Of a stretch of 32,000 nucleotides of DNA, positions 1 to 30,123 are shown piece by piece. Numbering within the stretch: the stretch's first letter is position 1; every line of letters begins with the position of its first letter. The stretch comes from Candidatus Saccharimonadota bacterium (GTDB lineage: Bacteria; Patescibacteriota; Gracilibacteria; BD1-5; UBA6164). Made by a program: the position numbers and the translations under genes. Location of the stretch: the NCBI GenBank assembly GCA_965227835.1, contig OZ245768.1, positions 480,001 to 512,000 on the forward strand. Direction: 5' to 3'. Under the pieces are notes generated by a model. That model was not told where the DNA came from. It did no database searches and saw nothing but the letters and a program-made list of their open reading frames with translations.

Positions 1-569
1 ATTTTTTCTATTTCTTTTAAATAATTTTCTATGAATTTATAAAAAAATACATTTGCTAATACATCTAATTCTTTTTTTACACTAAAATCTCTTTTTGTTA
101 TTCAAATTCAATACCTATTTATAAACTCTTTTTTATGATTATTTAATATTTTATCATCTATAATTTCATTTCCGAAATCTTGTAAGTAAATTAAAAAATT
201 ATAGATTTTTATATAAGAATTAATATCAATTGAATTAAACAAATTCATATAAGGTTCCATATTAATTCAATTGTACATAATTTTTAATCGTATTTTTTTA
301 TTTATTACATCTATTATATTTATTAAATATGTTCTATTTATTATATTATTTAAATTATCTATAGGTATTCAGCTTAAATCTAAATCTCAGTAAATTCAAA
401 TTAGAAATCAATGATCATAAAAAAAAGTATGTTTTTCTAATTTCTCCCAGGAAATAATACCTTTAGATTCTTTAACTATTTTTTCATAATGGTTGAATTG
501 TAGAGGAAGTAACTTTCTTCTTAATTTTTCTTTCGAAGAAAAATAATTTTTTATTTTATTTAAAAGCAT
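1..569 (-). CDS. LRR-like repeat family protein, paralog 1 (C-terminal end runs off the window)
   Basis: ATG at 569-567 on the minus strand. The frame is free of TAA/TAG to position 1 with TGA read as Gly. The N-terminus MLLNKIKNYFSS and blocks of the C-terminal half are nucleotide-identical to the 613..1518 gene. Only one GDLDLSG-type repeat unit is present. Confidence 0.75.
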
Positions 570-612
570 TTATTTAACTATTAAAATTATAATTTTTAAA
601 TTATTTCTATTT

Positions 613-1518
613 TTAATTTGTTTTTCATATAGCTCTTTGAAGTTCATTACAAATCCTATTTTTTATTTCTTCTCAAAAATAATACTCTATATAATCAAGT
701 TTTTCTTCTAATTTTTTATAAACTTCTTTAGCATAATTTTTTCTTTCTTCCTCGCAGACTCAATTATTTTTCATTAGATTTATTTTTTCTATTTCTTTTA
801 AATAATTTTCTATGAATTTAACATAAAATATATTTATAAATAAAGACAATTGTTTTTTTACTATATTTGATCTTGCCATTTTTCAAGTTCAATATATGCT
901 TATAAGTTCTTCTTTATAAACATTTATTAATTCTTTATCTATATCTTTATCTTCAAAATCTTGTAAGTAAATTAAAAAATTATAGATTTTTATATAAGAA
1001 TTAATATTCATTGAATTATAAATACCCATATAAGGTTTCATATTGGTTCAATTGTATATAATTTTTCATCATATTTTTACTTCTTTTTTACCTATTTCAT
1101 ATAGTATATTACTTAAAGTATCTATAGTTATTCAACTTAGGTCTAAATCTTTTCAAACATATTCTAAACCTTTCAAATTTTCTATAAGAGATCAGTTTAA
1201 ATATAAACTTCATTTAATAATTTTTGATATTATTAAATCTTTTATTTTAGAATTAGTTAAATATAAATCTCATGAAATACCTTTTAAAAGAACTAAAAAT
1301 TCTATCGATACTCAGCTTAAATCTAAATTTCATTCCCAATAAATTGAAATTAAAATTCAATCTTCATGAAAAATACTATATTCTTCTAATTTTTCCCAAG
1401 TAATTACACCTTTAGATTTTTCAATTATTTCTTTATAATACTTGAATCTGCTAGTAAGTAATTTTTTTCTCAACCTCTCTTCGGAAGAAAAATAATTTTT
1501 TATTTTATTTAAAAGCAT
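613..1518 (-). CDS. LRR-like repeat family protein, paralog 2
   Basis: 301-codon minus-strand ORF, checked codon by codon, with stop TAA at 615-613. It has about four 20-22 aa units of the type LxxLxxVGxDLxLxGxxI (e.g. LKGLEYVGKDLDLSGITIDTL). No signal peptide is evident. Confidence 0.8.
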
Positions 1519-3428: not shown

Positions 3429-3480
3429 TTATGAAAGTTTTTTATAAAATTTATTCAGTAAAGTTATTTATATATTTTTC

Positions 3481-3503
3481 AAATGGCTAAAGCCATCTGT
3501 TGC
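3481..3503 (-). repeat. Intergenic hairpin repeat, copy 1 (CAACAGATGGCTTTAGCCATTTG on the minus strand)
   Basis: Member of a 7-copy family. The stem is CAGATGGC/GCCATTTG with loop TTTA. It lies in the leader between the divergent ABC-F and ftsH genes. Confidence 0.8.
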
Positions 3504-3617
3504 TAGAAAAATGGAATTATTATTTCATGTATCTAAAGCAAATTATTGGCAAAAAAATGAAATTTTTGATTTCAAATAGTTAAATATGTATGTTACTAAA
3601 AACAAAGCTCCTAACCC

Positions 3618-3640
3618 CAGATGGCTAAAGCCATCTGTTG
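3618..3640 (-). repeat. Intergenic hairpin repeat, copy 2 (CAACAGATGGCTTTAGCCATCTG on the minus strand)
   Basis: Perfect 8-bp stem CAGATGGC/GCCATCTG with loop TTTA. Same orientation as copy 1. Confidence 0.8.
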
Positions 3641-3828
3641 TAAAGTTGTAAAAATATATATTATTTATAATATTTTTAATTTTCAAATTTTTTAATTATT
3701 TTTTTGCAAATATAATCATTTAAAATAAAATGCCTTAGCTAATATAGATTTACTATATTTAAAAAAATAAGACCTATTTGAAATATAGCTAAAATCAATA
3801 AAAAAGATATATTTTAATCCATAAAAAA

Positions 3829-6446: not shown

Positions 6447-6469
6447 CAACAGAGAGCTTTAGCTCTTTG
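6447..6469 (+). repeat. Intergenic hairpin repeat, copy 3 (CAACAGAGAGCTTTAGCTCTTTG)
   Basis: Stem CAGAGAGC/GCTCTTTG with loop TTTA, 25 nt after the phosphoesterase stop. Identical to copy 7 (17599..17621, opposite strand). Confidence 0.8.
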
Positions 6470-6560
6470 TAATTGTATTTAATACAAAAAAACTTTATTT
6501 TCTATGAATATATAAATTTGGTTTAACCCTAGTAAGACATTACCCTAAGTTACCAATCGG

Positions 6561-6637
6561 ACCTCACACCCAATTTCTCTCCAACTCCACTTAACCCTAA
6601 CTATTTCCTATAAAACCTCACCCTAACCCTCTCCTTA
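6561..6637 (+). other. G-free, C-rich tract (77 nt, about 43 percent C, no G)
   Basis: Counted directly: 33 C and 0 G in 77 nt, in a genome that is otherwise about three quarters A+T. Copies of ACCCTA (= TTAGGGT on the minus strand) occur in and just upstream of the tract. Confidence 0.9.
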
Positions 6638-6739
6638 GAGTAGAGAGAATAGAACAGAGGGAATAGAATAGGAGGATAATAAAAATAGACAAAAAAGAAC
6701 TTTCTTTATATTTGCTCTGAATAATCTTACTTCAAAGAC

Positions 6740-6757
6740 AAGGGGTCTTGACCCCTT
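6740..6757. repeat. Perfect palindrome AAGGGGTC-TT-GACCCCTT abutting the 20-bp repeat array
   Basis: 8+8 bp dyad read directly. A near-identical copy plus the following TTGCATTTT occurs at 17702..17726. Confidence 0.85.
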
Positions 6758-6896
6758 GCATTTTGTCTTGAATTACTGCATTTTGTCTTGAATTACTGCA
6801 TTTTGCCTCGATCCATTGCATTCTATCCTAAACTCTTGCATTTTGCCTCAACCCCTTGCATTTTATCCTAAACTCTTGCATTTTAGATATTGATCT
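6757..6896 (+). repeat. Seven tandem 20-bp direct repeats (TGCATTTTGYCTYRA-N5), iteron-like
   Basis: Units start at 6757, 6777, 6797, 6817, 6837, 6857 and 6877, each beginning TGCATT(T/C)T. Units 1 and 2 are identical. A 20-bp period is not a multiple of 3, so the array is non-coding. Confidence 0.9.
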
Positions 6897-8138: not shown

Positions 8139-8453
8139 TTATTCGTCAACAGTATGAGGATTTATTAGTTTATTATAATCTACTTCACCACTACTTATTT
8201 GTTCTTCTTCAAATCTTCTAAATTCATCTTTGTCTAGTAATTCTACTTCATCTAATCAATAAGATCAATTTTTTCAAGAACTATTTATTGCATTTGAATT
8301 TAAATAATAATCCTCTCAATTTTCTCCTGAATCTAAAATTTCTCAAGTATTAACACTAAAACAATCTAAAAAATTTTCCACATCTGAATCTAGTCATAAA
8401 CTTCAAAATCAAGAATTATCTAACCCGTCAGATATTAATTCAGCATTTGCCAT
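8139..8453 (-). CDS. Hypothetical small acidic protein (104 aa), N-terminus MANAELISDGLDN
   Basis: Minus-strand ORF, checked codon by codon, roughly a quarter Asp/Glu. It shares its promoter, 5' UTR and first 13 codons with the 8768..9265 gene. Confidence 0.7.
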
Positions 8454-8484
8454 AATTATAAAAATTAAATATTAAAGTATAATA

Positions 8485-8513
8485 ATTATAATATACTTAA
8501 TAAATTAAGTCAA
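8485..8513 (-). promoter_or_regulatory. Consensus sigma70-type promoter of the 8139..8453 gene
   Basis: On the minus strand: TTGACT (8513-8508), a 17-nt spacer, then TATAAT (8490-8485). It lies about 30 nt upstream of the ATG. Confidence 0.6.
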
Positions 8514-8658
8514 AAATCTAAAAAGTTTTTTTATTTATTCATTTATTATTATTTCTGGAGTAAGTAAGATCTATTTTAGAATCTTGAAATAGAATATATG
8601 AAGTTAAAACAATAGGGAATTATAGAATAATTTATTTTAAAATTTAAACACCAAAAGC

Positions 8659-8767: not shown

Positions 8768-9265
8768 TTAAAATTTACGTTTTTTAATCTTTGGATTATA
8801 TAATTTAGCTCCTGAACTATTTGCGATTTTTTCTTTACTATTTGGCCTTTCCCATTTGATTGAACCTTCATACGGTCCGAACATGATTCCTGTTTCTGCT
8901 CCAAATCAAAATTCACGTGTTTTACTAAGAATTTTCTGGTGTAAATATTCAATATCAACAAGATCAAAACCTTCTAAATTAAATCATGTTCTTTCAGCTT
9001 CATCTAATAGAGCTCTAAACTTATTATAATTTTCTAAAACATAGTGAATAGGCTCACTATCATAAAGAAGAGATAAAGCCTGTAATTCTAATAACATATA
9101 AATTACATTTGAAGGTTGAACTAATCTACCTATGATACTTTTCGTTCAATCTAAAGTTCTTAAAGTATTCTTTGACAATGAATCAATATTATTTCATGAA
9201 TTTAAACTTTTATCAACATTTAACTCATTATCTAACCCATCAGATATTAACTCACCATTTGCCAT
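8768..9265 (-). CDS. Hypothetical protein (165 aa), N-terminus MANGELISDGLDN
   Basis: Minus-strand ORF from ATG 9265-9263 to TAA 8770-8768; every in-frame tta/cta was checked. It is out of frame with the track ORF 8716..8967, which I judge to be an artefact. Confidence 0.7.
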
Positions 9266-9297
9266 AATTATAAAAATTAAAAATTAAAGTTATAATA

Positions 9298-9326
9298 ATT
9301 ATAATATACTTAATAAATTAAGTCAA
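9298..9326 (-). promoter_or_regulatory. Consensus sigma70-type promoter of the 8768..9265 gene
   Basis: On the minus strand: TTGACT (9326-9321), a 17-nt spacer, then TATAAT (9303-9298). It is part of the 150-bp duplicated block. Confidence 0.6.
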
Positions 9327-9347
9327 AAATCTGAAATTTTTTTCAAA

Positions 9348-10586
9348 TTATTCATTTATTATTATTTCTGGGACTTCAGGATGAGACAAAAAACCTTGTG
9401 GGGACATAGACTTTCAATATGCTCCAGACTGTGGCATAACCACATAATCTCATATATTTGCAGTAATTCAAGTTTTTCATTTAGCTAAATAATCAACAGA
9501 AGTACAAAAAGGTCAGTATATATTTACTAAATCTTCACTACAAACTCTTGCCTCCTCCAATCATAAATTTTTTAAAACATAGTTTATATCATCTTTTGTC
9601 TCAATATTTACTACATCTATATGATAATCTATTCACAAAACTTGAGGTCTTTTATGTGCATTTGTTCAAGCATAACAAAGTATTCATTTACTAGACTTTC
9701 ATACTTTTTTTATATCATTTATCTTAGTTACAAAATATCACATATCTGCTCACAAATATCTTCATAATTCTAATATAAAAGTCTTTTCTCAAAAACCATA
9801 TTTATCTATTAACTCTCATAATCACTCACTATATTTTTGTATATCAAACTTACTAAATCAACCGTAATCAACTCAAAATCATCAACCAAAATCTATAGTT
9901 CTAAAATTTTTTCAAGTTTTATTTTCTATTTCAGCTACAAACTTAAAAGTTTCATCTACACTTCTTAAAAGAACTCAAGCACTCATTATTCAAGTAGCTG
10001 GATACATATGAAATCAATCAACTTTTATATTTTCAAACTTAGATAATATCTTTAAAATTTCTATTGTATCATCTTGTGCTACTCAAAATTGTGTATCTCA
10101 ACTTCAAAGTTTTACTCAAGCCTCTCAATCCAAAAATTTATGTTTGGTATTTAGTCTAAGAAGTATATTTTGAACAATTCAGATTTCTCTAGCTTTTTTA
10201 TTTATCCTTATAGCTTCAACTAAAGATTCTACATTTAGATATCATATATTATTTTCTATACAAAAATCTAGCTCTTTAGAAGTTTTACTTGGTCATGTAT
10301 ATATGACACGACTTAGATCCTTCTCTCAGTTTGATAAAACTATATCTATCTCTCATCTAGATGCCACTTCTATTCATTTTATATTAGAATGTTTCAAAGC
10401 TTCATTTACCACTTTTTTATGAGGGTTTACCTTCATAGCAAAATAAGTATCTACTTTGCTTGGAAGACAAGATAAAATAGACATTTTAGATCTCATTACT
10501 TCAAGATCATATATATACATAGAATCAAGACTAGTATTTTCTCTTATAGTATTTACTATATTTTCAGGAGTTTTATATCTTTCCAT
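9348..10586 (-). CDS. Group IV PLP-dependent decarboxylase (diaminopimelate/ornithine/carboxynorspermidine decarboxylase family)
   Basis: 412-codon ORF, checked for stops. Motifs seen: YFAMKVNP (the PLP lysine), GIEVASRGE, GPSKTSKEL, IDFGGGFG, and C-terminal SGAYGKSMS. Confidence 0.85.
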
Positions 10587-15329: not shown

Positions 15330-16142
15330 ATGAAAATACAAGAAGACAAAATAAAATCTGTAATAGTAGAAGTGGAAAATATGAAATCTCAAAAAGAATT
15401 TAGAAAAGCAAGAAAATTTATAGAAAACCATATAATGAAATTCAGTGATGATTATAGACTTTATGAAGAAATGGCAGATATAGACATCTACATATGAAAC
15501 TTAAACAAGGCTGAAAAATCTATAGATTATGCTCTTGAATTAAACAAAATGTCTGCTACTTGAAACTATTTAAAATGATTTATATTGCTATCAAAAAATA
15601 AACCTAAAGAATCATTGAAATATTTAGAAAAATCAAACGAACTACTTTGAAATAACTCTGAAGTATTAAGGAACTTATGATGGGCATATACTATGAGCAA
15701 CAATGTAGAAAAAGGTATAGCAATACTTAAAAGAGCTTTAGTTTTGGCTCCATGAGATACATTAATAGCTGAAGATCTCGCTATGGCCCTTATTTGAAAA
15801 TGAGAAATAGCTAAATGAAATAAAATACTTGAAGAAATTAAGAAGAGTATAAAAAAACAAAGTATGTAGAGCAAACTATAAAAAAATTAGCATATATTGA
15901 AAAGTAATCTTTTTATTTTTAGTAGGCAGATGGCTTTAGCCATTTGATATTTTGGAAAATTACTCTTTACTTGTTATTTACAATTATATAGCAAAACAAT
16001 TTGTACCTTAATTTACTATAAAATAACTAAACAAAAAAAATTATTCATAAACATTATCCAAAAAATCCTTTATTTTTATGATAAAAAAATAATTTTACTA
16101 CGGGTACTAAAAATTATGAAAAATAAAAATGAAACATTTTAA
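15330..16142 (+). CDS. TPR-repeat protein; 3' end uncertain (no in-frame TAA/TAG until 16140-16142)
   Basis: Codon-by-codon tracking. The first ~185 codons look like TPR helices (e.g. AEDLAMALIGKGEIAKGNKILEEI). The frame then stays open across repeated intergenic modules and overlaps the ftsA start by 14 nt. Confidence 0.6.
15927..15946 (+). repeat. Intergenic hairpin repeat, copy 4 (CAGATGGCTTTAGCCATTTG)
   Basis: Same stem and loop as copies 1 and 2. The 5' flank is GG instead of CAA. Confidence 0.75.
15974..16012 (+). repeat. Intergenic module B (TTATTTACAATTATATAGCAAAACAATTTGTACCTTAAT)
   Basis: About 80 percent identical to 17534..17571. Both copies lie on the + strand just after a hairpin or terminator. 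Confidence 0.7.
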
Positions 16143-17343: not shown

Positions 17344-17368
17344 AAAATTAATTTCATCAAATCCTAAT

Positions 17369-17391
17369 CAACAGAAGACTTTAGACTTTTG
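17369..17391 (+). repeat. Intergenic hairpin repeat, copy 5 (CAACAGAAGACTTTAGACTTTTG), degenerate stem
   Basis: The conserved flanks and loop are retained; the stem has one A.A mismatch. It lies 26 nt after the ftsA stop. Confidence 0.7.
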
Positions 17392-17440
17392 AGTTTTTTA
17401 GTACAGAAAATCATATATATTTTAATTTTGTTAGAATATT

Positions 17441-17463
17441 CAACAGAAAGTTTTAGCCTTTTG
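17441..17463 (+). repeat. Intergenic hairpin repeat, copy 6 (CAACAGAAAGTTTTAGCCTTTTG), degenerate stem
   Basis: The flanks CAACAGA and TTTTG and the loop TTTAG are retained. The stem is only partly complementary. Confidence 0.6.
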
Positions 17464-17490
17464 CTATTGTAGAAAGTTTATCTTTTTTAC

Positions 17491-17524
17491 AAAAACTCCC
17501 CTGTTTAAATCGAGGAGTTTTTTA
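17491..17524 (+). terminator. Intrinsic terminator of the ftsA transcription unit
   Basis: Stem AAAAACTCC(C)...(G)AGGAGTTTTT followed by a T run. It lies downstream of hairpin copies 5 and 6, which would therefore sit in the 3' UTR. Confidence 0.65.
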
Positions 17525-17533
17525 GTTTATTAT

Positions 17534-17571
17534 TATTTATAATATATATAGTAAAACAGTTTGTACTTAAT
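17534..17571 (+). repeat. Intergenic module B, second copy
   Basis: TTATTTATAATATATATAGTAAAACAGTTTGTACTTAAT; see 15974..16012. Confidence 0.7.
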
Positions 17572-17598
17572 CTATTCAGAGAGCTAAAAAAGAACATT

Positions 17599-17621
17599 CA
17601 AAGAGCTAAAGCTCTCTGTTG
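17599..17621 (-). repeat. Intergenic hairpin repeat, copy 7 (CAACAGAGAGCTTTAGCTCTTTG on the minus strand)
   Basis: Identical to copy 3 but on the opposite strand. It is in the same sense as the upstream minus-strand ABC ATPase gene and about 145 nt after its stop. Confidence 0.8.
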
Positions 17622-17701
17622 ATAAATTTTTACAAATTATATTTAATTTATAAAGCTGGTTTAAAATCATTGATTTTAAGATATATAATAAATACTTAGA
17701 C

Positions 17702-17726
17702 AAGAGGTCTTGACCCCTTGCATTTT
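17702..17726 (+). repeat. Second copy of the palindrome plus TTGCATTTT module (AAGAGGTCTTGACCCCTTGCATTTT)
   Basis: 24 of 25 nt identical to 6740..6764. Confidence 0.8.
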
Positions 17727-17765
17727 ACTCCCTTACTATAATCCCTTGCTTAAATAAAATTACTA

Positions 17766-19656: not shown

Positions 19657-20340
19657 ATGCAACTAACAGATAGAAATATACTTATATTAAAAATAATAAT
19701 AGAAGAATTTTTGAAAAATGGTGATTTAATAGGCTCAAAACTCTTACTTTCAAAGTTTGATTTATGAGTAAGTCCTGCGACTGTTAGGTGAGATATGGCA
19801 AAACTTGAAAAAATGAATTTAGTTTTTCAACCCTATAATTCTGCATGAAGAATGCCTACTTCAAGCTGAATTAGAGTATATGTAGATTATATGATGAAAG
19901 AAACTCCTTCATATTTTTTAAATGAGAACAATGTAGAGATATCTTGAAATATAAAAAACTTTTCTGATTATGTTTATAATATAACGAATTCTTTGTCAAA
20001 AAATACTATGGAGTTGAGTTTTTTTAGTATCCCTGAACAAAACATATTATGATATTCTTGAATATCAAACTTTATAAAAATAAATAAGTTAGAAGATAGC
20101 AGTAAGATAATAGAAATGCTTGAAGATAAAATAAGGTTTATGGATTTTTTATCTAGTTTATCATTAAAACCTGGGATAAATTTATTTATATGAGACGAAA
20201 ATAGTATAAATTATCTTAAAAAATTCTCAATAATTATAAAACCTATAATTATAAACAGTGAAAAGGGTTATATATGAATAATATGATCAATCGGGCAAAA
20301 TTATAGCTTTAATATAGCTGCTATAAAAGGTATAATATAA
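19657..20340 (+). CDS. hrcA: Heat-inducible transcription repressor HrcA (short form, 227 aa)
   Basis: ORF checked codon by codon. The N-terminal winged helix LTDRNILILKIIIEEFLKNGDLIGSKLLLSKFDLGVSPATVRGDMAKLEKMNLVFQPYNSAGRMPTSSGIRVYVDYM matches the HrcA consensus (SAGRxPTxxGYRxYVD). Confidence 0.85.
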
Positions 20341-20345
20341 AAAAC

Positions 20346-20373
20346 TTGACTTATTAATAAAAACTATTAAGAT
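20346..20373 (+). promoter_or_regulatory. Promoter of minigene A
   Basis: TTGACT (20346-20351), a 16-nt spacer, then TAAGAT (20368-20373). An identical copy lies 252 bp downstream. Confidence 0.5.
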
Positions 20374-20409
20374 ACAAAATACAATTTTATTTTTTAACTA
20401 TAAAAAGTT

Positions 20410-20592
20410 ATGGAAAACAATGACGTAGGTATTCAATGTAAAGGTCCTCAGACTATAACAGACTTAAGCAAACTAAAATATATTTGATCAAATTTAGATT
20501 TAGGTTCTATTGATCATTTACCTCAACTAATTAAAAGTTCTACGGGACAAATCCTAGATTCAATTAATAATGATTTGAGTGATTCTAAATAA
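20410..20592 (+). CDS. Small protein A (60 aa) with one LRR-like unit
   Basis: MENNDVGIQCKGPQTITDLSKLKYIGSNLDLGSIDHLPQLIKSSTGQILDSINNDLSDSK. It is preceded by an in-frame TAA and ends at TAA. The first 23 codons are identical to minigene B. Confidence 0.65.
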
Positions 20593-20597
20593 AAAAC

Positions 20598-20625
20598 TTG
20601 ACTTATTAATAAAAACTATTAAGAT
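20598..20625 (+). promoter_or_regulatory. Promoter of minigene B
   Basis: Exact copy of 20346..20373. Confidence 0.5.
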
Positions 20626-20661
20626 ACAAAATACAATTTTATTTTTTAACTATAAAAAGTT

Positions 20662-20823
20662 ATGGAAAACAATGACGTAGGTATTCAATGTAAAGGTCCT
20701 CAGACTATAACAGACTTAAGCAAACTAAAATGTGTTTGATTAGATTTTGATTATATCGAAAGTGAATCTGAATTAGCTAGAAGCTCTACAGAAAAAATTT
20801 TAGGAAAACCTCAAGATAAATAA
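20662..20823 (+). CDS. Small protein B (53 aa), paralog of A with a divergent C-terminus
   Basis: MENNDVGIQCKGPQTITDLSKLKCVGLDFDYIESESELARSSTEKILGKPQDK, ending at TAA. Confidence 0.65.
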
Positions 20824-28972: not shown

Positions 28973-29012
28973 AAAAAAGAAGCTAAAACATAAAAATTTT
29001 AGCTTCTTTTTT
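28973..29012. terminator. Bidirectional terminator between convergent genes
   Basis: 16-bp stem aaaaaagaagctaaaa/ttttagcttctttttt with an 8-nt loop. The right arm overlaps the stop codon of the LRR gene (29001-28999). Confidence 0.7.
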
Positions 29013-30123
29013 TTGTCAATTTTTCTTTCATCTCTTTTCTAAACTCATCTAAGAGTCTATTTTTTATTTCTTCTCAAAAATAATGCTCTATTTCATGAAA
29101 TTTATCATCTAGTTTTTTATAAATTTCTTCTATTTTTTCATCAATTTCATTCTTGGAAGCTCAATTTTTTTGCATTAGTTTTATTTTATGACCATAGCTT
29201 AGAAAATTTTCTACAAACTGATAATAAAATATATTCGCTAGGATATTTAATTCTTTTTTAACTTTATCATCTCTTTTTGCTTTTCAAGATCAATATCTAT
29301 TTATAAACTCTTTTTTTTGATCATTTAATAATTCTTCATCTGTAATTTCATCTTCAAAAACTCAAAAACTATTTAAAAACAAAGAAATATCAATATAACT
29401 TTTAAAATTCGTTCAATCATATATGATTTCTCATCTTACTTTTATAGAATTTGTAATTATTTCTTTTAATATATTTTTTAGAGCATTCCATGATATTCAG
29501 TTTAAAGTTAAATCATTTCAAACAATATGTAACTTCGGTAAATTTTCTATAAGAGTTCATTGTAAATTTAAATCGTATCAAACATATTCTAATTTTGGTA
29601 AATCTTTTATAGAAGTTCATTGTAAGCTTAAATCAAATCAAACATTTTCTAAATTTGGTAAGATTTCTATAAAAGTTCATTGTAAAAATAAACTCAGTCA
29701 AACTTCTTTTAATTTTGGTAAATCTTCTATAGAAGTTCACTGTAAGTTTAAGTCAAATCAAACATTTTCTAAATTTGGTAAGCTTTCTATAAGAGTTCAT
29801 TGTAAATTTAAATTCATTCAAACTTCTTCCAATTTTGACAAACTTTTTACAAAAGTTCATACTAGCACTAAAGTTCATCAAACACTTTTTAAATATGATA
29901 AATCCGTTATAGGTTTATACTTTAAATTTAAATCTCATTTCCAATAAATTCAATCTAATCCTCAACCAGATTTAAATTTGCTATATTTTTCTAGTTTCTC
30001 CCAAGACATAATACCACTTGATTCCTTAAACATTCTTTCATAGTCTATAAATTGTTCAGGAGTTAGTTTCCTTTTAAGATTTTCTTTCGGAGAGAAATAA
30101 TTTTTTATCTTTTCTAAATTCAT
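28999..30123 (-). CDS. LRR-like repeat family protein, paralog 3 (about 8 repeat units)
   Basis: 374-codon ORF, checked codon by codon. The N-terminus MNLEKIKNYFSPKENLKRKL is related to paralogs 1 and 2. The centre is a tandem run of 20-aa units LPxLExVGxDLxLQGTxIEx. The C-terminal domain is shared with the paralogs (FINRYG.GK...ANIFYY.F.EN). Confidence 0.8.
29497..29940 (-). repeat. Tandem 60-bp coding repeats (about 7 units, with a 120-bp alternating super-period)
   Basis: Successive 60-nt sequence lines 29521-29880 align column for column. Units alternate between a ..caaacattttctaaatttggtaag.. type and a ..caaacttcttttaattttggtaaatc.. type. Confidence 0.9.

What the first reader, a model, noticed from the sequence alone, without database searches (positions are those of the whole stretch)
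17344..17765. Family of seven short intergenic hairpins with compensatory stem changes, embedded in mosaic (BOX/BIME-like) spacers
**Seen directly.** The element CAACAGA-NNNN-CTTTAG-NNNN-TTTG occurs seven times:
- Minus strand: 3481..3503, 3618..3640 and 17599..17621.
- Plus strand: 6447..6469, 15927..15946, 17369..17391 and 17441..17463.

The flanks and the TTTA loop are constant, but the stem exists in two versions. ATGGC/GCCAT is found in copies 1, 2 and 4; AGAGC/GCTCT in copies 3 and 7. They differ by two base pairs, both changed in a compensatory way. Copies 5 and 6 are degenerate.

In four copies the third stem pair is G-T in the CAACAG sense. That is tolerated as G.U in RNA of that sense but gives C.A in the opposite sense. 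Every copy is in the same sense as the adjacent gene.

After ftsA, two copies precede a canonical terminator (17491..17524), so the hairpins themselves are not the terminators.

The same spacers share other modules: module B (15974..16012 and 17534..17571) and the palindrome plus TTGCATTTT (6740..6764 and 17702..17726). This gives a modular architecture reminiscent of pneumococcal BOX or enterobacterial BIME/REP elements.

**Inference.** This looks like a transcribed, structure-selected RNA element (mRNA stabiliser, processing site or protein-binding site), or the footprint of a hairpin-recognising mobile system. I know of no described equivalent for this lineage.
Basis: partly seen in the sequence, partly recalled or inferred. 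Interest (0 to 1): 0.7.

Follow-up and report, generated by a model that had tools for sequence, protein, structure and literature searches.

The report
REP-like hairpin repeats in Gracilibacteria
The seven hairpins are copies of a short palindromic DNA repeat (a REP-type element) that is spread through many Gracilibacteria-type genomes and, in relatives, brackets the small tyrosine transposase gene thought to move it; this is a new family of a known kind of selfish repeat, not a dedicated RNA regulator.

Summary
A covariance model finds exactly seven copies of CAA-CAGANNNC-TTTA-GNNNTYTG in the window, and the stem covaries strongly.

The window uses genetic code 25 (TGA = Gly), so it comes from a Gracilibacteria/Absconditabacteria-type CPR bacterium.

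The same hairpin is a multicopy repeat in more than 12 related MAGs: 102 model hits in 406 kb. In nine relatives, a 152-aa Y1 (HUH) transposase gene has this hairpin or a close variant next to it. Its best NCBIfam match is REP-associated tyrosine transposase. In eight of the nine the hairpins sit on both sides in inverted orientation, and where the 3' copy is intact the stop codon lies in its loop.

One filled/empty comparison shows a clean 24-nt insertion (AACAGAGGGCTTTAGCCCTTTGAA) after TTRTC, with no duplication. About a quarter of copies in relatives lie in frame inside genes, encoding TEGFSPL.

Best reading: a REP/RAYT-type element family. No RAYT was seen for the window's own genome. Verdict: new member of a known kind, moderate interest.

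The parts
3480..3502 (-). REP-like hairpin copy, CAACAGATGGCTTTAGCCATTTG. Stem ATGGC/GCCAT, G.T at the third pair. It lies 51 nt upstream of the ABC-F gene start.
   Evidence: Exact pattern match. Covariance model R1 scores 45.4 bits.
3618..3640 (-). REP-like hairpin copy, CAACAGATGGCTTTAGCCATCTG. The third pair is G-C here.
   Evidence: Pattern match with one mismatch. R1 scores 37.8 bits.
6447..6469 (+). REP-like hairpin copy, CAACAGAGAGCTTTAGCTCTTTG. It lies 25 nt after the stop codon of the metallophosphatase gene.
   Evidence: Exact match. R1 scores 46.9 bits. RNA fold is -12.1 kcal/mol, z = -4.5.
15927..15946 (+). REP-like hairpin copy that lacks the CAA leader (AGG-CAGATGGCTTTAGCCATTTG). 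It sits between the TPR gene and ftsA.
   Evidence: Repeat family D12. R1 scores 41.6 bits.
17369..17391 (+). Degenerate REP-like copy, CAACAGAAGACTTTAGACTTTTG, with one A.A mismatch. It lies 25 nt after the ftsA stop codon (17343).
   Evidence: Exact pattern match. R1 scores 44.8 bits. The fold is no better than shuffled sequence, z = -0.5.
17441..17463 (+). Degenerate REP-like copy, CAACAGAAAGTTTTAGCCTTTTG, with one A.C mismatch and one T.G pair.
   Evidence: Exact pattern match. R1 scores 35.2 bits. The fold gives z = 0.0.
17599..17621 (-). REP-like hairpin copy, CAACAGAGAGCTTTAGCTCTTTG, the best match in the window. It lies 144 nt downstream of the stop codon of the minus-strand ABC ATPase gene (17766). 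Its 5' flank is TTATC, the same as the empty MnmA site.
   Evidence: Exact match. R1 scores 51.2 bits. RNA fold is -10.5 kcal/mol, z = -3.8.
6738..6758 (+). Second hairpin type, ACAAGGGGTCTTGACCCCTTG, followed by CATTTT. It resembles the AACAAGGGG...CCCCTTGTT hairpins at the ends of the more distant RAYT-like genes. It is possibly a second REP family.
   Evidence: Compare the L096 hairpin and others.
17700..17720 (+). Second copy of the type-B hairpin, ACAAGAGGTCTTGACCCCTTG, followed by CATTTT.
   Evidence: The minus strand folds at -11.3 kcal/mol.
17534..17571 (+). Module B, a roughly 38-nt block repeated at 15974-16012. It is part of the mosaic spacer. Its role is unknown.
   Evidence: Pairwise alignment.
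17491..17524 (+). Terminator-like hairpin with flanking A and U tracts, between the convergent ftsA and ABC ATPase genes. It is not a member of the repeat family.
   Evidence: RNA fold -8.3 kcal/mol, z = -2.1. Not flagged by the simple scan.

Best explanation
The seven hairpins are copies of a REP-type (repetitive extragenic palindrome-like) DNA element family. The family is shared by code-25 CPR bacteria (Gracilibacteria and relatives).

**The unit.** It is a 24-nt sequence, AA-CAGANNNC-TTTA-GNNNTYTG-AA. As single-stranded DNA it folds into an 8-bp hairpin with a conserved G.T mismatch and a TTTA loop.

**How it most likely spreads (inferred).** The copies are generated by a RAYT-like Y1 (HUH) tyrosine transposase. 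Such an enzyme recognises the hairpin on one DNA strand and cleaves and joins at its foot. New copies land 3' of a TTGTC-like pentanucleotide without target duplication, as IS200/IS605-family enzymes do. Because the unit is 24 nt, it can also settle in frame inside genes.

**What is shown.**
- The family, the covariation and the multi-species spread.
- The transposase gene next to the hairpin in relatives, in most cases bracketed by inverted copies.
- One clean 24-nt filled/empty pair.

**What is inferred.**
- That the transposase is the mobilising enzyme.
- The target rule.
- Any activity in the window's own genome, where two copies are already decaying.
- Transcribed copies may secondarily act as mRNA 3' hairpins, as proposed for other REPs. 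Nothing here requires that.
For: **1. Family in the window.** Seven model hits at 35-51 bits, against 13.8 bits for the next hit.

**2. Structure.**
- 98.4% of cells paired, 31 double compensatory changes, 0 of 500 shuffles reach this.
- The unconstrained inner triplets are fully paired in 57 of 63 matches in loci below 30% G+C. The figure is 3 of 31 in the loci at or above 30% G+C, which are mostly chance matches in other taxa.

**3. Lineage-wide multicopy repeat.**
- There are 102 model hits in 406 kb of those loci.
- These genomes are only about 70% identical to the window in conserved genes.

**4. Cognate transposase.**
- In L007 and L054, a 152-aa gene has an inverted hairpin 20-140 nt upstream and a forward hairpin overlapping its stop codon, with TAG in the loop.
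- Pfam Y1_Tnp scores 33-34 bits (gathering threshold 23).
- The best NCBIfam hit is NF047646, REP-associated tyrosine transposase, at 53/46 bits. The IS200 model scores 27 bits.
- The HUH motif DHVHL and the Tyr of KYTLEN align with ISDra2 TnpA, including its QKYIESQ segment.
- The same geometry appears in L091, L092, L093 and L124, L125.
- L123 has a variant hairpin on both sides. L122, a truncated gene, has hairpins upstream only.
- JGI annotates family members as 'REP element-mobilizing transposase RayT'. Each protein cluster is seen on only 1-2 contigs, apart from one cluster seen on seven.
- More distant homologues carry a different hairpin (AACAAGGGGTTGCAACCCCTTGTT), so the hairpin varies with the enzyme clade.

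**5. Insertion.**
- The MnmA gene of L064 has 8 extra codons (TEGFSPLN) relative to orthologues that are 78-80% identical.
- At DNA level the empty site reads TTATC|TAGTTGG. The filled site reads TTGTC[AACAGAGGGCTTTAGCCCTTTGAA]TAGTTGG.
- The 5' flank TTGTC is 71-94% conserved across 84 copies.

**6. Doublets and clusters.** These occur at contig ends in UBA6164.
Against: - No RAYT gene lies in the window.
- None of the 54 family members found is on a contig of 1,489,121 bp, which is the contig that carries the window's proteins. The window's genome may therefore lack a close RAYT. This is a weak negative, because that search needs shared 5-residue words.
- The NCBIfam RAYT score is below the curated cut-off (53 bits against 80). 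The solved E. coli RAYT structure was not retrieved by sequence.
- The hairpin lacks the GTAG or CGTC tag that characterises most described REPs (PMC3733652).
- Only one clean filled/empty pair was obtained. A second host (PyrC) was ambiguous.
- The strong bias of coding copies to one sense frame (23 of 30) is not explained by the model.
- No transposition has been demonstrated experimentally here.
Confidence: 0.8

Rival explanations
1. The hairpins are primarily RNA elements. They would be selected to act in transcripts as 3' stabilisers, processing sites, protein-binding sites or non-canonical terminators.
For: - In the window, five copies lie 25-145 nt downstream of a co-oriented gene.
- Intact copies fold well as RNA, at -10.5 to -12.1 kcal/mol.
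- The conserved G.T pair would be a tolerated G.U in RNA.
- The simple scan flags two copies as terminator-like.
- Many REPs are thought to be transcribed and to function as RNA elements (PMC3733652).
Against: - Orientation in tandem intergenic regions of relatives is 9 sense to 10 antisense.
- The two copies directly after ftsA have broken stems and fold like shuffled sequence.
- Most copies have no U tract.
- The element sits in frame inside housekeeping genes such as MnmA, AroA, AroE and SerC. A terminator or cleavage site there would be harmful.
- It flanks the transposase gene in inverted orientation.
- There is no Rfam match.
Confidence: 0.1
2. The hairpins are the ends, or miniature derivatives (PATE/MITE), of an ordinary multicopy IS200/IS605-type insertion sequence. 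On this reading they are not a REP/RAYT system with a single domesticated gene.
For: - The closest solved relatives are IS200/IS605 transposases: ISDra2 TnpA, PDB 2xm3, E = 3e-7.
- Insertion 3' of a pentanucleotide without duplication is the IS200/IS605 mode.
- The NCBIfam RAYT score is below its cut-off.
Against: - The hairpins that flank the gene are in inverted orientation. From general knowledge, IS200/IS605 ends are in direct orientation.
- No tnpB lies next to the gene.
- Nearly every protein cluster is seen on only 1-2 contigs.
- Solo hairpins vastly outnumber the gene: 102 hairpins against 3 genes in 406 kb.
- The NCBIfam RAYT model scores about twice the IS200 model.
Confidence: 0.07
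3. The motif is a DNA uptake signal, or another sequence tag such as USS/DUS. It would accumulate in place in both coding and non-coding DNA.
For: - It occurs in both genes and spacers, with a strongly preferred reading frame.
- It is conserved across species.
- There is no length change against a distant MnmA structure.
Against: - Close orthologues show that the coding copy is a clean 24-nt insertion, not in-place drift.
- The variable inner stem covaries, which a double-stranded sequence tag does not need.
- The element is associated with a transposase gene.
Confidence: 0.02

Closest known systems
REP elements and their RAYT transposases (REP/BIME of Enterobacteria, REPINs of Pseudomonas; PMC3733652, PMC3116915, PMC3337134)
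   Same: - A short imperfect palindrome of 20-40 nt in many copies, mostly in spacers near gene ends.
- Copies occur as singles, inverted doublets and clusters mixed with other modules.
- A small Y1 (HUH) transposase gene is bracketed by inverted copies.
- The hairpin sequence varies with the enzyme clade.
- Intragenic copies are also known for some REP families.
   Different: - There is no GTAG or CGTC tag. The unpaired ends are AA...AA, and the conserved 5' flank is TTGTC.
- The host is a code-25 CPR bacterium.
- The enzyme is divergent (below the NCBIfam RAYT cut-off).
- The unit is exactly 24 nt and is frequent in frame inside genes.
- The stop codon of the transposase gene lies in the hairpin loop.
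IS200/IS605 family single-strand transposition (ISDra2, IS608)
   Same: - The Y1 HUH enzyme is the closest solved relative (2xm3).
- Hairpins are recognised on one strand.
- Insertion is 3' of a short specific sequence without duplication. From general knowledge, the targets are TTGAT for ISDra2 and TTAC for IS608.
   Different: - The flanking hairpins are inverted, not direct.
- There is no TnpB.
- The gene appears to be single copy, while solo hairpins are numerous.
Rickettsia palindromic elements (RPE) and intragenic REPs of Opitutus terrae (PMC3733652)
   Same: Palindromic repeats are inserted in frame into functional protein-coding genes, adding short peptide segments in loops.
   Different: - RPE-1 is much longer.
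- The REP super-family that contains the short rickettsial repeats (RPE-4 and RPE-6) apparently lacks a dedicated transposase (PMC3733652).
- The lineage and the sequence are different.
Pneumococcal BOX elements
   Same: Both are modular intergenic repeats.
   Different: No boxA/B/C architecture and no sequence similarity were seen. BOX elements have no associated Y1 transposase. The resemblance is superficial.

Membership tests
REP/RAYT system | Short (20-40 nt) imperfect palindrome that forms a stem-loop and is present in many copies | tested here: met
   - Seven copies in 32 kb.
- 102 copies in 406 kb of related DNA.
- 8-bp stem with covariation.
REP/RAYT system | Mostly intergenic, typically near the 3' ends of genes | tested here: met
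   - Window: 7 of 7 copies are intergenic.
- Wider set of 96 regex matches (window included): about two thirds are intergenic, many within 40 nt of a stop codon. About a quarter to a third lie inside ORFs.
REP/RAYT system | Unpaired GTAG or CGTC tag at one end (the two described super-families) | tested here: not met
   The ends are AA...AA, and the conserved 5' flank is TTGTC. Neither tag is present.
REP/RAYT system | A RAYT gene flanked by two REPs in inverted orientation | tested here: met
   - Met in relatives: L007, L054, L091, L092, L093, L124 and L125, plus L123 with a variant hairpin. L122 has hairpins upstream only.
- Not testable for the window's own genome: there is no such gene in the window, and none was found on its contig.
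REP/RAYT system | The enzyme is a Y1 HUH transposase with an HUH motif and a catalytic Tyr | tested here: met
   - Pfam PF01797 at 33-34 bits, gathering threshold 23.
- DHVHL and the Tyr of KYTLEN align to ISDra2 TnpA.
- NCBIfam RAYT is the best hit but below its cut-off.
REP/RAYT system | RAYT is single copy and vertically inherited | not testable with these tools
   Only a hint: all but one of the protein clusters are seen on 1-2 contigs. Whole genomes were not available.
REP/RAYT system | Inverted doublets (REPIN) as a common arrangement | tested here: inconclusive
   - Doublets about 35-40 nt apart recur in UBA6164 loci and in L125, L020 and L051.
- In the window, copies are single or in tandem. 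The one convergent pair is 135 nt apart.
IS200/IS605 insertion sequence | Left and right end hairpins in the same orientation around tnpA (often with tnpB) | tested here: not met
   The flanking hairpins are inverted, and there is no tnpB neighbour.
IS200/IS605 insertion sequence | Insertion 3' of a specific 4-5-nt target without duplication | tested here: inconclusive
   One clean filled/empty pair and a conserved TTGTC 5' flank. A second host was ambiguous.
Intrinsic (rho-independent) terminator | G+C-rich stem directly followed by a U tract, oriented with the upstream gene | tested here: not met
   - Only 2 of 7 copies are flagged.
- The consensus 3' flank is AA.
- Antisense and in-frame coding copies are common.
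DNA uptake sequence (USS/DUS type) | A sequence tag that accumulates in place, with no need for base pairing | tested here: not met
   The coding copy is a 24-nt insertion, and the stem covaries.
Rfam RNA families | Match to a curated covariance model | tested here: not met
   No hit at gathering thresholds in the window. Only sub-threshold noise in the spacer.

The most novel reading that the evidence does not exclude
A single 24-nt hairpin, not a doublet or a longer MITE, is itself the mobile unit of a CPR RAYT clade. It is inserted 3' of TTGTC into single-stranded DNA.

Both hairpin types of this enzyme clade are exactly 8 codons long and open in the preferred frame (TEGFSPL(N/K) and NKGLQPLV). 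The elements, and in some lineages the whole transposase gene, therefore colonise protein-coding genes without breaking them. This would make short palindromic insertions a regular source of protein loop variation in reduced CPR genomes.
Probability: 0.35. Interest if true: 0.65.

Novelty: new member of a known kind. Interest (0 to 1): 0.45.

Why it matters
REP/RAYT systems have been studied almost only in Proteobacteria. In the full-text searches made here, no paper held both REP/RAYT terms and CPR or Gracilibacteria terms.

This family matters for four reasons:
- It provides a direct filled/empty example of a solo 24-nt REP insertion.
- It suggests a candidate target sequence, TTGTC.
- It gives a compact enzyme and substrate pair that could be tested in vitro.
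- It explains the assembly breaks and the odd peptide inserts (TEGFSPL) seen in Gracilibacteria MAG proteins.

For annotation, these hairpins should not be called terminators or small RNAs by default.

Tried and rejected
- **Table 11 or table 4 translation.** Only TGA = Gly gives proper Walker A and FtsA motifs.
- **Promoter idea.** The opposite strand reads hairpin-TTGACA, which looks like a -35 box. No consistent -10 box or spacing follows, and the conserved flank is TTGTC(AA) rather than a promoter.
- **DNA uptake sequence or in-place accumulation.** The alignment to the solved MnmA structure showed no length change. Close orthologues then showed a clean 8-codon insertion.
- **Bulged-stem alternative** (TCAA/TTGA with a CAG bulge; DNA fold). 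The T-to-C change at the third pair gives G-C in the continuous stem and would break the bulged one.
- **Rfam and tRNA scans.** Nothing found.
- **Viral contigs.** Six chance matches (four distinct sequences), none with a fully paired inner triplet.
- **Second filled/empty test on PyrC.** Ambiguous, because many orthologues carry diverged inserts at the same site.
- **Fetching the window's own genome.**
  - Code-4 translations exist in the protein collection, on a 1,489,121-bp contig. They are not in the contig index.
- **Structure prediction of the transposase.** Not attempted.

Full report
**Source organism.** The window is 23% G+C. Under table 11 it shows almost no long ORFs. Reading TGA as a sense codon restores a dense gene map. 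TGA falls where glycine is required (Walker A GPNGVGKT, FtsA IDVGTYK), so the code is 25. The source is therefore a Gracilibacteria/Absconditabacteria-type CPR bacterium.

Pfam places the hairpin-bearing spacers next to these genes:
- an ABC-F gene and ftsH (3429-3828)
- a metallophosphatase gene (6423 onward)
- a TPR gene and ftsA (15870-16128)
- ftsA and a convergent ABC ATPase gene (17344-17765)

**The observation.** The pattern as literally written finds nothing. The real 23-nt element, CAACAG-N5-TTTA-N5-TTG, gives five exact copies and a sixth with one mismatch. A seventh lacks the leader. The stem is 8 bp, CAGANNNC/GNNNTYTG, with G.T at the third pair in six of seven copies.

ATGGC/GCCAT is in 3480, 3618 and 15927. 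AGAGC/GCTCT is in 6447 and 17599. The two copies after ftsA each have a broken pair and fold like shuffled sequence. Intact copies fold at -10.5 to -12.1 kcal/mol as RNA.

**Beyond the window.** Most hits lie in more than a dozen Gracilibacteria, 'Peribacteria' and Patescibacteria MAGs. None of these is the window's species: conserved genes are about 70% identical.
- The dominant form is TTGTCAA-CAGAGGGC-TTTA-GCCCTTTG-AA.
- The three inner positions left free by the pattern are fully paired in 57 of 63 matches in loci below 30% G+C. The figure is 3 of 31 in the loci at or above 30% G+C, which are mostly chance matches in other taxa.
- None of the chance matches in viral contigs is fully paired.
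- On 78 distinct copies, 98.4% of cells pair, with 31 double changes over five pairs. No shuffle and no slid register comes close.
- A covariance model finds exactly the seven window copies, at 35-51 bits against 13.8 for the next hit.
- The same model finds 102 copies in 406 kb of related loci.

**What it is.** Screening ORFs in the loci for an HUH motif turned up a 152-aa gene in L007 and L054. It is preceded by an inverted hairpin and ends inside a forward hairpin, with its TAG stop codon in the loop.
- It passes Pfam Y1_Tnp.
- Its best NCBIfam model is REP-associated tyrosine transposase, about twice the IS200 score but below the cut-off.
- Its HUH motif and C-terminal Tyr align with ISDra2 TnpA.

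A metagenome scan with this protein gave 30 loci. The three closest (66-72% identical) show the same bracket of inverted hairpins. Four more loci came from the protein search. L124 and L125 show the same bracket. L123 has a variant hairpin on both sides. The truncated gene in L122 has hairpins upstream only.

JGI already labels some members 'REP element-mobilizing transposase RayT', and nearly every cluster sits on one or two contigs. More distant homologues end in a different hairpin, AACAAGGGGTTGCAACCCCTTGTT. The hairpin therefore tracks the enzyme clade. This is the REP/RAYT arrangement.

**Mobility.** In relatives, about a quarter of copies lie inside long ORFs of unrelated housekeeping genes. 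Twenty-three of 30 are in one sense frame, (L)S-TEGFSPL-(N/K/Q). One copy carries a compensatory stem change that alters the peptide from Ser to Asn.

Against a distant solved MnmA structure there is no length change. However, MnmA orthologues that are 78-80% identical lack exactly eight codons at that point. The DNA comparison shows:
- empty site: TTATC|TAGTTGG
- filled site: TTGTC[AACAGAGGGCTTTAGCCCTTTGAA]TAGTTGG

That is a 24-nt insertion with no duplication. The 5' flank TTGTC is conserved at 71-94% across 84 copies. The 3' AA is conserved at only 56-60%. This fits a target preference of the IS200/IS605 kind. A second host, PyrC, was ambiguous.

**The RNA reading.** Within the window, orientation agrees with the neighbouring gene. 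In relatives, copies in tandem intergenic regions are 9 sense to 10 antisense (cruder count). Few copies have a U tract. In-frame copies inside essential genes argue against a terminator or cleavage role. The conserved G.T pair also distinguishes the two DNA strands for a single-strand hairpin enzyme. A secondary RNA effect of transcribed copies is not excluded.

**Limits.**
- The window holds no RAYT gene.
- The window's proteins, in code-4 translation, are on a 1,489,121-bp NCBI/ENA contig. None of the 54 family members is on a contig of that length. The enzyme may be missing or divergent in this genome. That would fit the two decayed copies.
- The rest of that genome could not be read.

**Literature.** REPs, RAYTs, REPINs and intragenic REPs are described in other phyla (PMC3733652, PMC3116915, PMC3337134). 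Most described REPs carry a GTAG or CGTC tag, which this family lacks. In the full-text searches made here, no paper held both REP/RAYT terms and Gracilibacteria or CPR terms.

**Verdict.** The family is a new member of the REP/RAYT kind, of moderate interest.

Noticed in passing
whole window: The genetic code is 25 (TGA = Gly). Every gene called contains 1-40 in-frame TGA codons, and glycine motifs appear only under this reading. The source is a Gracilibacteria/Absconditabacteria-type CPR bacterium. The window's proteins (in code-4 translation) are on a 1.49-Mb NCBI/ENA contig.
   Followed up: yes
L098 1258-4896; also L026, L095, L097, L099, L101, L104, L108, L110, L113: In more distant relatives, the RAYT-like Y1 domain sits in frame inside a long MmeI/Eco57I-type restriction-modification methyltransferase ORF.
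- It always lies between ...NIKCGNSLIDD...EFPxIF and GGFDVVIGNPPYV.
- In several of these loci a hairpin lies at its end.
- Pfam on L098 finds Eco57I split in two, with Y1_Tnp at residues 607-707.

This could be a nested transposase gene or a domain fusion at a fixed site.
   Followed up: partly
L064 7195-7214 and MnmA orthologues P0001-P0120: One loop of MnmA is an insertion hot spot. Different Gracilibacteria lineages carry different short inserts at the same point: TEGFSPLN, SPLGGKYPKGDRGL, SPLAPLLSIEGK and SPHPSPLPKSEG.
   Followed up: partly
L078 1515-3776(-), L044, L013; window 6520-6660: A second kind of in-frame repeat peptide occurs several times in single proteins of one MAG.
- Examples are PLLxKEGxGVV, SPLLQRRGAGGEV and KYPKGDRG.
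- It appears as an insertion of about 13 aa against solved AroA structures.
- The window has an unusually G+C-rich non-coding stretch at 6520-6660. It might be related, but no nucleotide similarity was found.
   Followed up: no
window 6745-6884: Seven tandem 20-nt units, each ending in TTGCATTTT (period 20, also readable as period 40). They start at the type-B hairpin at 6738-6758. One further hairpin plus CATTTT lies at 17700-17726. The function is unknown. The ORF at 6597-6821(-) that overlaps the repeats is probably spurious.
   Followed up: partly
window 15974-16012 and 17534-17571: Module B is a block of about 38 nt (TTATTTAYAAT(A)TATATAGYAAAACARTTTGTACYT) shared by the spacer upstream of ftsA and the spacer downstream of it. 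Its role is unknown.
   Followed up: partly
window 20337-20500 and 20589-20752: A 164-nt direct repeat at 97% identity, 252 nt apart. It overlaps a 60-codon ORF.
   Followed up: no
window 1-1518 and 28999-30123: Three paralogous genes for repeat proteins with no Pfam match. They have 60-nt internal repeats and conserved N- and C-terminal parts.
   Followed up: no
window 8415-8558 and 9227-9371: Two neighbouring minus-strand genes share their first codons (MAN[AG]ELISDGLDN) and about 100 nt of upstream sequence, at 87-94% identity.
   Followed up: no
related loci, coding copies: Coding copies are strongly biased to one sense frame (23 of 30), although four of the six frames are open under code 25. 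Intergenic copies show no orientation bias. This is unexplained. It could reflect peptide tolerance or strand-specific insertion.
   Followed up: partly
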